From the NCBI RefSeq assembly GCF_009914755.1, contig NC_060936.1: a stretch of 64,000 nt of DNA, one strand, 5' to 3'. Positions 21,840-24,800 of the stretch are shown piece by piece. The notes below the pieces were generated by a model. It did not search any database. It was not told the origin of the DNA and saw nothing but the letters and a program-made list of their open reading frames with translations. The DNA comes from the human T2T-CHM13v2.0 reference genome, Homo sapiens. Positions within the stretch are counted from its first letter, which is position 1; each line of letters starts with the position of its first letter. Both the position numbers and the translations under genes were made by a program.

Positions 21840-24800
21840 GATTCCATTCCAAGATGGCTGAATAGGAACAGCTCTGGTCTGCAGCTCCCAGCGTGATTGA
21901 TGCAGAAGATGGGTGATTTCTGCATTTCCAACTGAGGTACCTCGTTCATCTCATTGGGACTGGTTGGACAGTGGGTGCAGCCCACAGAGGGTGAGCCGAA
22001 GCAGGGCAGGGCATTGCCTCACCTGAGAAGCCCAAAGGGTCGGGGGATTTCCCTTTCCTAGCCAAGGGAAGCTGTGACAGACTTTACCTGGAAAAACGGG
22101 ACACTCCCACCCAAATACTGCACTTTTCCAGTGGTCTTAGCAAACAGCACACCAGGAGATTACATCCTGTGCATGGCTTGGTGGGGCCCATGCCCATGGA
22201 GCCTTGCTCACTGCTAGCGCAGCAGTCTGAGATCGACCTGCGAGGCAGCAGCCTGGCAGGTGGAAGGGCGTCCACCATTGCTGAGGTTTGAGTGGGTAAA
22301 CAAAGTGGGTGGGGAAGCTTGAACTGGGCAGAGCCCACCACAGCTCCGCAAAGCCAGCTGCCTCTGTAGACTCCACTTCTGGGGGCAGGGCATAGCTGAA
22401 CAAAAGGCAGCAGAAACTTCTGCAGACTTAAACATCCCTGTCTGACAGCTCTGAAGAGAGCAGTGGTTCTCCCAGCATGGTGTTTGAGCTCTGAGAACAG
22501 ACAGACTGCTTCCCTCAGTGGGTCCCTGACCCCCATGTAGCCTAACTGGGAGACACCTCCCAGTAGGGGCCAACTGATACATCATACAGGTGGGTGCCCC
22601 TCTGGGACGAAGCTTCCAGAGGAAGGATCAGGCAGCAATATTTGCTGTTCTGCAATATTTGCTGTTCTGCAGCCTCCGCTGGTGATACCGAGGCAAACAG
22701 GGTCTGGAGTGGACCTCCAGCAAACTCCAACAGACCTACAGCTAAGGGACCTGACTGTTAGAAGGAAAACTAACAAACAATAAAGAATAGCATCAACACC
22801 AACAAAAAGGACATCCACACCAAAATCTCAGTTGTAGGTCACCAACATCAAAGACCAAAGGTAGATAAAATCACAAAGATGGGGAGAAACCAGAGCAGAA
22901 AAGCTGAAAATTCTAAAAACCAGAGCGCCTCTTCTCCTCCAAAGGATCACAGCTCCTCGCCAGCAATGGAACAAAGCTGGACGGAGAATGACTTTGACGA
23001 GCTGACAGAAGTAGGCTTCAGAAGGTTGGTAATAACAAACTTCTCCAAGCTACAGGAGGATGTTTGAACCCATTATAAGGAAGCTAAAAACCTTGAAAAA
23101 AGATTATACAAATGGCAAACTAGAACAAACAGTGTACAGAGGACCTTAAATGACCTGATGGAGCTGAAAACCATGGCACGAGAACTATGTGATGCATGCA
23201 CAAGCTTCAATAGCCAATTCGATCAGGTGGAAGAAAGGGTATCAGCAATTGGAGATCAAATTAATGAAATAAAGTGAGAAGAGAAGTTAAAAGAAAAAAG
23301 AGTAAAAAGAAATGAACAAAACCTACAAGAAATATGGGACTATGTGAAAAGACCAAATCTACATTTGATTGGTGTACCTGAAAGTGACGGGGAGAATAGA
23401 ATCAAGTTGGAAAACACTCTTCAGGATATTATCCAGGAGAACTTCCCCAACCTAGCAAGGCAGGCCAACATTCAAATTCAGGAAATACAGAGAGCACCGC
23501 AAAGATATTCCTCGAGAGGAGCAACCCCAAGATATATAATTGTCAGATTCACCAAGGTTGAAATGAAGGAAAAAATGTTAAGGGCAGCCACAAAGAAAGG
23601 TCAGGTTACCCACAAAGGGAAGCCCATCAGACTAACAGCAGATCTCTCAGCAGAAACTCTACAAGCTAGAAGAGAGTGGGGGGCAATATTCAACATTCTT
23701 AAAGAAAAGAATTTTCAACCAAGAATTTCATATCCAGCCAAACTAAGTGAAGGAGAAATAAAATCCTTTACAGACAAGCAGATGCTGAGAGATTTTGTCA
23801 CCACCAGGCTTGCCTTACAAGAGCTCCTGAAGGGAGCACTAAACATGGAAAGGAAAAACCAGTATCAACCACTGCAAAAACATGCCAAATTGTAAAGACC
23901 ATCGATGCTAGGAAAACACTGCATCAACTAATGGGCAAAATAACCAACTAACATCATAATGACAGGATCAAATTCACACATAACAATATTAACCTTAAAT
24001 GTAAATGGACTATATGTCCCAATTAAAAGACACAGACTGGCAAATTGGATAAAGAGTCAAGACCCATCAGTGTGCTGTATTCAGGAGACCCATCTCATGT
24101 GCAGAGACACATACAGGCTCAAAATAAAGGGATGGAGGAAGATCTACCAAGCAAATGGAAAGCAAAAAAAAAGCAGGGGCTGCAATCCTAGTCTCGGATA
24201 AAACAGATTTTAAACCAACAAAGATCAAAACAGGCAAAGAAGGCCATTACGTCATGGTAAAGGGATCAATTCAACAAGAAGAGCTAACTTTCCTAAGTAT
24301 ATATGCACCCAATACAGGAGCACCCAGATTCATAAAGCAAGTCCTTAGAGACCTACAAAGAGACTTAGACTCCCACACAATAATAATGGGAGACTTTAAC
24401 ACCCCACTGTCAATATTAGACAAATCAATGAGACAGAAGGTTAACAAGAATATCCAAGACTTGAGCTCAGCTCTGCACCAAGTGGACCTCAATAGACATC
24501 TACAGAACTCTCCACCACAAATCAACAGAATATACATTTTTCTCAGCACCACACTGCACTTATTCCAAAACTGACCACAGAGTTGGAAGTAAAACACTCT
24601 TCAGCAAATGTAAAAGAACAGAAATCACAACAAACTGTCTCTCAGACCACATTGCAATCAAATTAGAACTCAGGATTAAGAAACTCACTCAAAACCGCAC
24701 AACTACATGGAAACCGAACAACCTGCTCCTGAAGGACTACTGGGTAAATAGCGAAATGAAGGCAGAAATAAAGATGTTCTTTGAAACCAATGAGAACAAA

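What the first reader, a model, noticed from the sequence alone, without database searches (positions are those of the whole stretch)
22080..22278. Open L1 ORF0 ending on a splice donor, co-oriented with GLT8D2: candidate L1-antisense-promoter isoform
Seen: ORF1 and ORF2 of this L1 are dead, yet the antisense ORF0 homologue is open for 64 codons (ATG at 22278, context GCAATGG). Its end reads TTCCAG|GTAAAG, a good 5' splice site whose GTAA also supplies the stop. Known: primate L1 5'UTRs have an antisense promoter (ASP), and ORF0 contains donors that splice to neighbouring exons. Inference: the ASP points down GLT8D2, so it could act as an alternative first exon spliced to the acceptor at 9186 or 7371. 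ORF0 would then be a uORF or fusion leader ahead of the full GLT8D2 CDS.
Basis: partly seen in the sequence, partly recalled or inferred. Interest (0 to 1): 0.7.

Follow-up and report, generated by a model that had tools for sequence, protein, structure and literature searches.

The report
Ordinary L1PA6 antisense ORF0 remnant
The open 64-codon frame is the decayed antisense ORF0 of an old, dead LINE-1 copy sitting in a GLT8D2 intron; a quarter to a half of its sister copies are just as open, and nothing found here shows that it starts a GLT8D2 transcript.

Summary
A full-length, TSD-flanked L1PA6 lies on the + strand at about 21840-27976 in GLT8D2 intron 1. Its ORF1 and ORF2 are broken. On the minus strand the ORF0 homologue runs from ATG 22278 to TAA 22084 (64 codons, context GCAATGG). 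It ends on CAG|GTAAAG, the homologue of the first known ORF0 splice donor. The second donor, CAG|GTGAGG, is also kept.

The open frame is not special. ORF0 is open for at least 64 codons in 19 of 39 nearest sister copies and in 28 of 100 copies chosen only by the ATG context. A neutral simulation gives 0.33-0.39. The family frame is typically 110 codons, so this copy is truncated. A private C-to-A change at donor position +4 (0 of 39 and 0 of 100 other copies) creates the stop and a somewhat better donor.

Splicing to exon 2 or exon 3 would give only a 74- or 70-codon uORF. Stops lie before the GLT8D2 ATG, so a fusion is excluded. Having the antisense promoter co-oriented with the host gene is the majority arrangement. 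No exon in the hub's RefSeq table lies in the L1, and GLT8D2 is absent from the supplements of seven L1-chimera or L1-locus studies.

Verdict: an ordinary neutral repeat. The proposed isoform is unshown and has a low prior.

The parts
21840..27976 (+). Full-length L1PA6 element with dead ORF1 and ORF2, in GLT8D2 intron 1 and antisense to the gene
   Evidence: The 5' end reads ..CCAAGATGGCTGAATAGGAACAGCTC. The 3' end is an A-run. A RepeatMasker row in Pinson 2022 Table S1 gives L1PA6, repeat positions 1-6151, milliDiv 64. The genome search found 5595 first-look candidates; 39 scored copies other than this one were 88-91% identical over 461 nt. ORF1 and ORF2 are fragmented.
21822..21839 (.). 5' target-site duplication AAAAATTATGTATGCCTG
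   Evidence: Read directly. It matches 27977-27994 at 17 of 18 bases.
27977..27994 (.). 3' target-site duplication AAAAATTATTTATGCCTG
   Evidence: Read directly.
22084..22278 (-). ORF0 homologue: 64 codons plus TAA
   Evidence: It is collinear with the 70-71-codon ORF0 of young L1 copies located with the published ORF0 primer, with 33-34 of 64 residues identical.
22082..22090 (-). First ORF0 splice donor (SD1) CAG|GTAAAG. The exon ends at 22088. A private C-to-A change at +4 creates the TAA stop.
   Evidence: It matches the MAG|GTRAGT consensus at 7 of 9 positions, against 6 of 9 for the family's modal CAG|GTACAG. GTAAAG occurs in 0 of 39 sister copies, and GTAA at this offset in 0 of 100. The donor sits at the same place in young L1 copies.
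22017..22025 (-). Second ORF0-region splice donor (SD2) CAG|GTGAGG. The exon ends at 22023.
   Evidence: 8 of 9 consensus positions. The exact 9-mer is shared by 8 of 39 sister copies; most others read CGG or TGG before GTGAGG.
22279..22536 (-). In-frame upstream extension of the ORF0 frame to an ATG at 22536, giving a 150-aa ORF overall
   Evidence: The same 101-codon open upstream stretch is present in 5 of 16 sister copies that could be evaluated, so it is inherited from the family.
22290..22640 (-). Presumed L1 antisense promoter region (L1 positions about +450 to +800), placed by position only
   Evidence: Inference. Pinson 2022 places L1-ASP core activity and regulatory regions at +450 to +800 and TSS clusters near +450 and +200.
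22879..23067 (+). Remnant of L1 ORF1: ATG, then a stop after 62 codons
9052..9186 (-). GLT8D2 exon 2 (5'UTR), the proposed acceptor. The polypyrimidine tract is weak.
   Evidence: Hub annotation. The acceptor context has a pyrimidine fraction of 0.5. ORF0 spliced here stops after 10 more codons.
7325..7371 (-). GLT8D2 exon 3, with the start codon at 7343
   Evidence: Hub annotation. ORF0 spliced here stops after 6 more codons, two codons before the ATG.

Best explanation
This is an ordinary, fixed, coding-dead full-length L1PA6 inserted in GLT8D2 intron 1 in the usual antisense orientation. The 64-codon frame is the neutrally decaying remnant of the family's antisense ORF0. It has kept its start codon and has not yet acquired an early stop, as is true of a quarter to a half of its sister copies. 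A single copy-specific C-to-A change at position +4 of the first ORF0 splice donor cut the family's typical 110-codon frame to 64 codons. The same change made the donor look slightly more canonical. The ORF has no function of its own. If the antisense promoter fires at all, the most likely product is a low-level, mostly unspliced by-product of host-locus transcription (inferred). Shown here: the anatomy, the homology, the neutral retention rate, and the impossibility of an ORF0-GLT8D2 fusion. Inferred: absence of function and of a dedicated isoform.
For: Element identity. ORF0 homology to young-L1 ORF0 and the shared donor position. Retention rate: the ATG is kept in 39 of 39 nearest copies, and 19 of 39 are open for at least 64 codons. 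In a sample selected only on 15 nt around the ATG (the first 100 of 544 genome matches), 28 of 100 are open for at least 64 codons. The rate is similar in all three similarity classes: 8 of 29, 13 of 51 and 7 of 20. Neutral simulation at the element's 6.4% divergence gives 0.33-0.39. The modal family ORF length is 110 codons (11 of 39). GTACAG is the modal donor (22 of 39), and GTAAAG occurs in 0 of 39 and 0 of 100. CpG decay: 10 CpG (observed/expected 0.22) in the first 600 nt, against 23-34 (0.46-0.64) in six young copies. No exon in the hub's RefSeq table lies in 21840-22640. GLT8D2 is absent from the supplements searched. No paper combines GLT8D2 with 'antisense promoter', and the three papers with GLT8D2 and LINE-1 are on unrelated topics, judging by their titles and abstract openings. 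From Pinson 2022 passages: only 2.9% of detected L1 chimeric transcripts are spliced at their 5' end, and 68% of intragenic recent L1s lie opposite to their host gene. From Jonsson 2019 passages: after DNMT1 knock-out in neural progenitors only L1HS-L1PA3 were expressed; older L1s were not.
Against: Both donors are intact and fall within the range of the annotated donors of this window: 7 of 9 and 8 of 9 against 6-8 of 9. Pinson 2022 finds that about 17% of L1PA1-L1PA7 elements with a 5'UTR give chimeric transcripts in brain and glioma, from 13.5% for L1PA1 to 20.6% for L1PA7, and that 92% of intragenic producers have this orientation. Some antisense transcription in tissues that express GLT8D2 is therefore plausible. 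The catalogues searched cover mainly ESTs, brain, glioma, neural progenitors and cancer panels, so absence from them is weak evidence. No expression data could be examined directly. The 39-copy sample was chosen by similarity to this copy, which favours indel-free copies and so open frames.
Confidence: 0.85

Rival explanations
1. The antisense promoter of this L1PA6 is active where GLT8D2 is transcribed and produces a low-level chimeric transcript. The transcript runs unspliced into the flanking intron. It would be a by-product with no effect on GLT8D2 protein output.
For: Base rate: about 17% of L1PA1-L1PA7 elements with a 5'UTR give such transcripts in brain and glioma. Activity is coupled to host-locus transcription, 92% of intragenic producers have this orientation, and most are unspliced (Pinson 2022 passages). 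The ASP-side sequence of this copy is a typical family member, with a mean identity of 86.6% to its sister copies over the 321-nt ORF0 region.
Against: This element is listed in Pinson's Table S1 but not among their 1571 chimeras. It is not in the EST-based set of 988. No direct data were available.
Confidence: 0.15
2. The antisense promoter provides an alternative first exon that splices from 22088 (or 22023) to GLT8D2 exon 2 or 3. The resulting isoform encodes full-length GLT8D2 behind a 64-74-codon ORF0 uORF that dampens translation.
For: Both donors are intact, and SD1 is improved by the private C-to-A change. The ORF0 ATG has a good context. In the spliced mRNA ORF0 would end before the GLT8D2 ATG, so a uORF arrangement is geometrically possible. 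L1-ASP alternative first exons are a known phenomenon (Criscione 2016 and Jonsson 2019 passages).
Against: No exon in the hub's RefSeq table lies in the L1. GLT8D2 is absent from seven supplement sets. Only 2.9% of detected chimeras are spliced at the 5' end, and only 161 of 8744 recent L1s (1.9%) have EST-type evidence (Pinson passages). The exon 2 acceptor has a weak pyrimidine tract of 0.5. TSSs of the '+200' class would lie downstream of the ORF0 ATG and of SD1 (inferred from positions).
Confidence: 0.04
3. ORF0 of this copy is translated into a functional 64-aa peptide, or into an ORF0-GLT8D2 fusion protein.
For: ORF0 peptides and ORF0-exon fusions have been reported for other loci (Denli 2015, known here only through Criscione 2016 and Hancks & Kazazian 2016 passages). 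The start context is good.
Against: A fusion is excluded on this sequence: stops follow 10 or 6 codons after the junction. The peptide is a truncated, 6%-diverged copy whose retention matches the neutral rate. Only 33-34 of 64 residues match young ORF0.
Confidence: 0.01

Closest known systems
LINE-1 ORF0 (Denli et al. 2015), the antisense ORF of primate L1 5'UTRs
   Same: Same position and strand in the 5'UTR. It is collinear with the 70-71-codon ORF0 of young copies (33-34 of 64 residues identical). It has the same purine -3 / G +4 start context, and both splice donors sit at the homologous places.
   Different: It has 64 codons rather than 70-71 in young L1 or about 110 in L1PA6-like copies, because of a private stop. 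The element is about 6.4% diverged and CpG-depleted. Transcription and translation are untested. The primary paper was not held; its content is cited only through reviews and later papers.
L1 antisense-promoter chimeric transcripts (LCTs), for example the L1-MET, L1-BCAS3 and LINC01876 type
   Same: The geometry is the same: an intronic L1 opposite to the host gene, with the ASP pointing at downstream host exons and donors available (Criscione 2016, Garza 2023, Lanciano 2024 and Pinson 2022 passages).
   Different: For those loci the TSS and junctions are documented. Here no transcript, junction or annotation was found (hub table).
Neutral full-length L1PA6 copies elsewhere in the genome
   Same: The mean pairwise identity of 86.3% is typical of the set. 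The ATG is kept in all copies, the probability of an open frame is similar, and the upstream 101-codon open stretch is shared.
   Different: Only the private GTACAG-to-GTAAAG change at SD1 differs (0 of 39, 0 of 100).

Membership tests
L1PA6 full-length LINE-1 | Homology over the 5'UTR to many dispersed copies at subfamily-level divergence | tested here: met
   One search gave 5595 first-look candidates, and 39 scored copies other than this one were 88-91% identical over 461 nt. Mean pairwise identity in the ORF0 region is 86.3%. A RepeatMasker row reads L1PA6, milliDiv 64, repeat positions 1-6151.
L1PA6 full-length LINE-1 | Retrotransposition hallmarks: an A-rich 3' end and flanking target-site duplication | tested here: met
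   An 18-nt duplication with one mismatch lies at 21822-21839 and 27977-27994, and an A-run lies at the 3' end.
L1 ORF0 | ORF on the antisense strand of the 5'UTR at the homologous position, with an ATG in a good context | tested here: met
   Aligned to young L1 copies found with the published ORF0 primer. The context GCAATGG is shared by 38 of 39 sister copies.
L1 ORF0 | Length about 70 aa with the native stop | tested here: not met
   The frame has 64 codons and ends at a private TAA. Young copies have 70-71 (3 of 6 examined; the others had 102, or no stop within 140 codons). L1PA6-like copies are modally 110.
L1 ORF0 | Two splice donors in or after the ORF | tested here: met
   CAG|GTAAAG has its exon end at 22088 and CAG|GTGAGG at 22023. 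That ORF0 has two donors comes from Hancks & Kazazian 2016 and Pinson 2022 passages.
L1 ORF0 | Transcribed from the ASP and translated | not testable with these tools
   No expression, CAGE, Ribo-seq or proteomic data are reachable.
L1-ASP chimeric transcript / alternative first exon of the host gene | [quoted passage not shown] | not testable with these tools
   No TSS data are available. The promoter scan offered is for bacterial sigma-70 sites and was not used.
L1-ASP chimeric transcript / alternative first exon of the host gene | Documented junction or annotated exon linking the L1 to a host exon | tested here: inconclusive
   None was found. The hub's RefSeq exon list has no exon in 21840-22640; its unlisted '1 more' exon follows 51868 in sorted order, which is an inference. 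GLT8D2 is absent from seven supplement sets. Absence from catalogues is not proof.
ORF0-host fusion protein | ORF0 frame open across the junction into the host coding sequence | tested here: not met
   Stops follow 10 codons (exon 2) or 6 codons (exon 3) after the junction. Via the 16-nt exon 17373-17388 the frame shifts and also stops.

The most novel reading that the evidence does not exclude
The private C-to-A change at +4 of the first ORF0 donor turned a weak family donor (CAG|GTACAG) into a usable one (CAG|GTAAAG) and at the same time capped ORF0. In tissues where GLT8D2 is transcribed, this particular L1PA6 would then supply a spliced alternative first exon. Its 70-74-codon ORF0 uORF would throttle GLT8D2 translation. 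This would be a single-nucleotide, copy-specific route to exaptation of an old L1 antisense promoter.
Probability: 0.04. Interest if true: 0.3.

Novelty: already known. Interest (0 to 1): 0.1.

Why it matters
It matters little. L1 ORF0, its two donors and ASP-driven chimeric transcripts are established, and thousands of loci have this geometry. The useful result is a calibration for the scan. An open ORF0 in an L1PA6-age copy is expected in roughly 30-50% of copies. Co-orientation of the ASP with the host gene is the majority state. Neither should be scored as a signal without transcript evidence. If the isoform did exist it would add one more entry to a list of about 1000-1500 known L1-chimeric loci, for a gene in which no L1 involvement turned up in the searches made here.

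Tried and rejected
1. ORF0-GLT8D2 fusion was tested and rejected, because in-frame stops follow every tested junction.

2. Selective retention of the open frame was tested against 39 nearest copies, 100 ATG-selected copies and a neutral simulation, and was rejected.

3. Literature links between GLT8D2 and the L1 ASP:
- 'GLT8D2' + 'antisense promoter' gave 0 papers.
- 'GLT8D2' + 'LINE-1' gave 3 papers, all on unrelated topics by title and abstract opening.
- A looser five-term search listed no paper containing GLT8D2 among its top 15.
- A search for pan-cancer TE-chimera papers was used only to find one more catalogue.

4. Supplement searches for GLT8D2 had no occurrence in any of these:
- Criscione 2016, 11 files
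- Jonsson 2019, 9 files
- Garza 2023, 1 file
- Pinson 2022, 3 files, not cut
- PMC10506190, 11 files
- Lanciano 2024, 11 files, also searched with coordinate prefixes that I estimated for hg19 and hg38 and that may be off
- PMC10614793, 3 files
The coordinate-prefix search in Pinson found the element only in Table S1. Supplementary files that are not held or could not be read (for example Pinson's figure file) could still bear on this.

5. Papers not held: Denli 2015, Macia 2011 and Speek 2001. Statements about them come only from citing papers.

7. A quantitative splice-site model (MaxEnt) was not available. Only consensus matches were counted.

8. Regex anchoring of the upstream frame worked for only 16 of 29 sister copies. 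The other 13 were dropped from that count.

9. The bacterial promoter/terminator scan, Rfam, protein-family, structure and complex tools were judged irrelevant and not used.

Full report
**What is there.** The + strand carries a full-length LINE-1.
- Its 5' end (..CCAAGATGGCTGAATAGGAACAGCTC..) begins at about 21840. Its A-rich 3' end lies at about 27976.
- An 18-nt target-site duplication with one mismatch flanks it at 21822-21839 and 27977-27994.
- The RepeatMasker table reproduced as Table S1 of Pinson et al. 2022 (supplement search only) lists an element of matching length, strand and place: hg19 chr12:104427944-104434083, +, L1PA6, 6.4% diverged, repeat positions 1-6151.
- ORF1 starts at 22879 and stops after 62 codons. 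The ORF2 region is cut into stop-to-stop pieces of at most 255 aa.

**The observation.** On the minus strand an ATG at 22278 (context cagcaATGg) opens a 64-codon frame ending in TAA at 22086-22084.
- The end reads TTTTTCCAG|GTAAAG, with the last exon base at 22088. The TAA is part of GTAA.
- A second donor, CAG|GTGAGG, follows with its exon end at 22023.
- The frame also extends upstream in-frame to an ATG at 22536, giving 150 aa in all.

**Homology to ORF0.** The primary ORF0 paper (Denli 2015) is not held, so I used the published ORF0 primer OU703 from PMC7746726 (methods section) as a pattern.
- It has 1680 exact matches in the genome.
- Of six fetched copies, three have a 70- or 71-codon ORF, one has 102 codons, and two have no stop within the 140 codons examined.
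- The window's frame is collinear with the 71-codon frames, with 33-34 of 64 residues identical and no gaps.
- The CAG|GT donor sits at the same alignment position.
- Reviews and later papers state that ORF0 is about 70 aa, is antisense in primate L1 5'UTRs (L1HS to L1PA8) and has two splice donors (passages).

**Is the open frame meaningful?** I tested this three ways.
- *Nearest copies.* A search of the window's own genome with window 22020-22480 scored 39 other copies at 88-91% identity. Twenty-nine came as loci and ten were fetched by coordinates. All 39 keep the ATG, 38 keep GCAATGG, and 19 of 39 are open for at least 64 codons. This sample was picked by similarity to the window copy, which favours indel-free copies.
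- *ATG-selected copies.* A 15-nt pattern around the ATG has 544 matches, against 1 for the control. I fetched the first 100 listed, on contigs 1-3. Of these, 28 of 100 are open for at least 64 codons. Grouped by alignment length and identity to the window copy (at least 350 nt aligned at 85% or more; at least 350 nt at under 85%; less than 350 nt aligned), the counts are 8 of 29, 13 of 51 and 7 of 20.
- *Simulation.* At 6.4% divergence, with an assumed indel rate, the probability of keeping the ATG, avoiding stops and avoiding frameshifts over 64 codons is 0.33-0.39.

**The stop and the donor come from one private mutation.**
- In the 39 nearest copies the first donor reads CAGGTACAG in 22 and never GTAAAG. 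GTAA occurs at that offset in 0 of 100 in the second sample.
- In the family TAC is a tyrosine codon and the frame reads on. The modal length is 110 codons (11 of 39).
- The window copy is therefore a truncated ORF0, not a preserved one.
- The same C-to-A change raises the match to MAG|GTRAGT from 6 to 7 of 9. The second donor scores 8 of 9. Annotated donors in this window score 6-8 of 9.
- There are 28 sites scoring at least 7 of 9 in the 13.1 kb between the L1 and exon 2.

**What splicing would give.**
- Joining ORF0 (up to 22088) to exon 2 (9186) adds 10 codons and then a stop, for 74 codons in all.
- Joining it to exon 3 (7371) adds 6 codons and stops two codons before the GLT8D2 ATG.
- Routing through the annotated 16-nt exon 17373-17388 shifts the frame and also runs into stops.

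A fusion leader is excluded. Only a uORF is possible. If the second donor were used, ORF0 would simply end at its own TAA.

**Prior for the isoform.** These figures come from Pinson 2022 (passages).
- 68% of intragenic recent L1s lie opposite to their host gene, so co-orientation of the ASP with the gene is the default.
- About 17% of L1PA1-L1PA7 elements with a 5'UTR gave chimeric transcripts in brain and glioma.
- Only 2.9% of those were spliced at the 5' end.
- 161 of 8744 recent L1s had prior EST-type evidence.
- Activity tracked host-locus transcription rather than methylation.

Jonsson 2019 (passages) found that after DNMT1 loss in neural progenitors only L1HS-L1PA3 were expressed. The window copy has lost most promoter CpGs: 10 in the first 600 nt, against 23-34 in six young copies.

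**Direct evidence sought.**
- No exon in the hub's RefSeq table lies in the L1.
- GLT8D2 does not occur in the held supplements of Criscione 2016, Jonsson 2019, Garza 2023, Pinson 2022, PMC10506190, Lanciano 2024 or PMC10614793.
- The element is in Pinson's Table S1 but not in their uncut chimera table.
- No paper combines GLT8D2 with 'antisense promoter'.

These are absences in catalogues dominated by ESTs, brain and cancer samples. They lower the odds but do not exclude the isoform.

**Verdict.** The feature is an ordinary neutral L1PA6 5'UTR. I put 0.85 on "no dedicated function, frame open by chance". About 0.15 goes to some unspliced antisense by-product in tissues that express GLT8D2, a reading that is compatible with the first. 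About 0.04 goes to a spliced ASP-GLT8D2 isoform with an ORF0 uORF. About 0.01 goes to a functional peptide. The fusion is refuted.

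Noticed in passing
window 17373-17388 (- strand): The annotated 16-nt GLT8D2 exon has a strong donor (GTT|GTAAGT) but no AG before it (..CCAACTG|TTTGCC). It therefore looks like the truncated first exon of a transcript starting inside intron 1, 4.5 kb downstream of the L1's 5' end on the same strand. Where that transcript really starts is unknown.
   Followed up: partly
loci L002-L040 and L047-L146 (sister L1 copies): In L1PA6-like copies the ORF0 frame is modally 110 codons, not about 70. 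A further 101 codons upstream of the ATG are open in 5 of 16 copies evaluated, giving up to 211 codons stop-to-stop in one copy, L027. Whether this long antisense frame of older L1PA 5'UTRs has been described was not checked.
   Followed up: partly
loci L004, L010-L012, L029, L040 and others: Stops recur at the same codon in many copies: length 55 in 6 of 39 and 5 of 100, and length 24 in 10 of 100. This suggests sub-lineages with inherited stops or CpG-type hot spots rather than independent random hits.
   Followed up: no
window 21840-22514: The hub's list of NCBI-masked stretches starts this L1 at 22515. The first 675 nt of the element, which hold the ORF0 and ASP parts, are not among the listed masked stretches although they are highly repeated (5595 first-look candidates). 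This may make the region look unique to a reader.
   Followed up: no
window about 21509-21650: An Alu-like element lies just beyond the L1's 5' end, in sense orientation on the minus strand with its A-tail towards lower coordinates. It was recognised by eye. Any antisense-promoter transcript would run straight into it.
   Followed up: no
window 9187-9209 (- strand): The acceptor of GLT8D2 exon 2 has a purine-rich, weak polypyrimidine tract with a pyrimidine fraction of 0.5. Exons 3 and 4 have 0.8 and 0.75.
   Followed up: no
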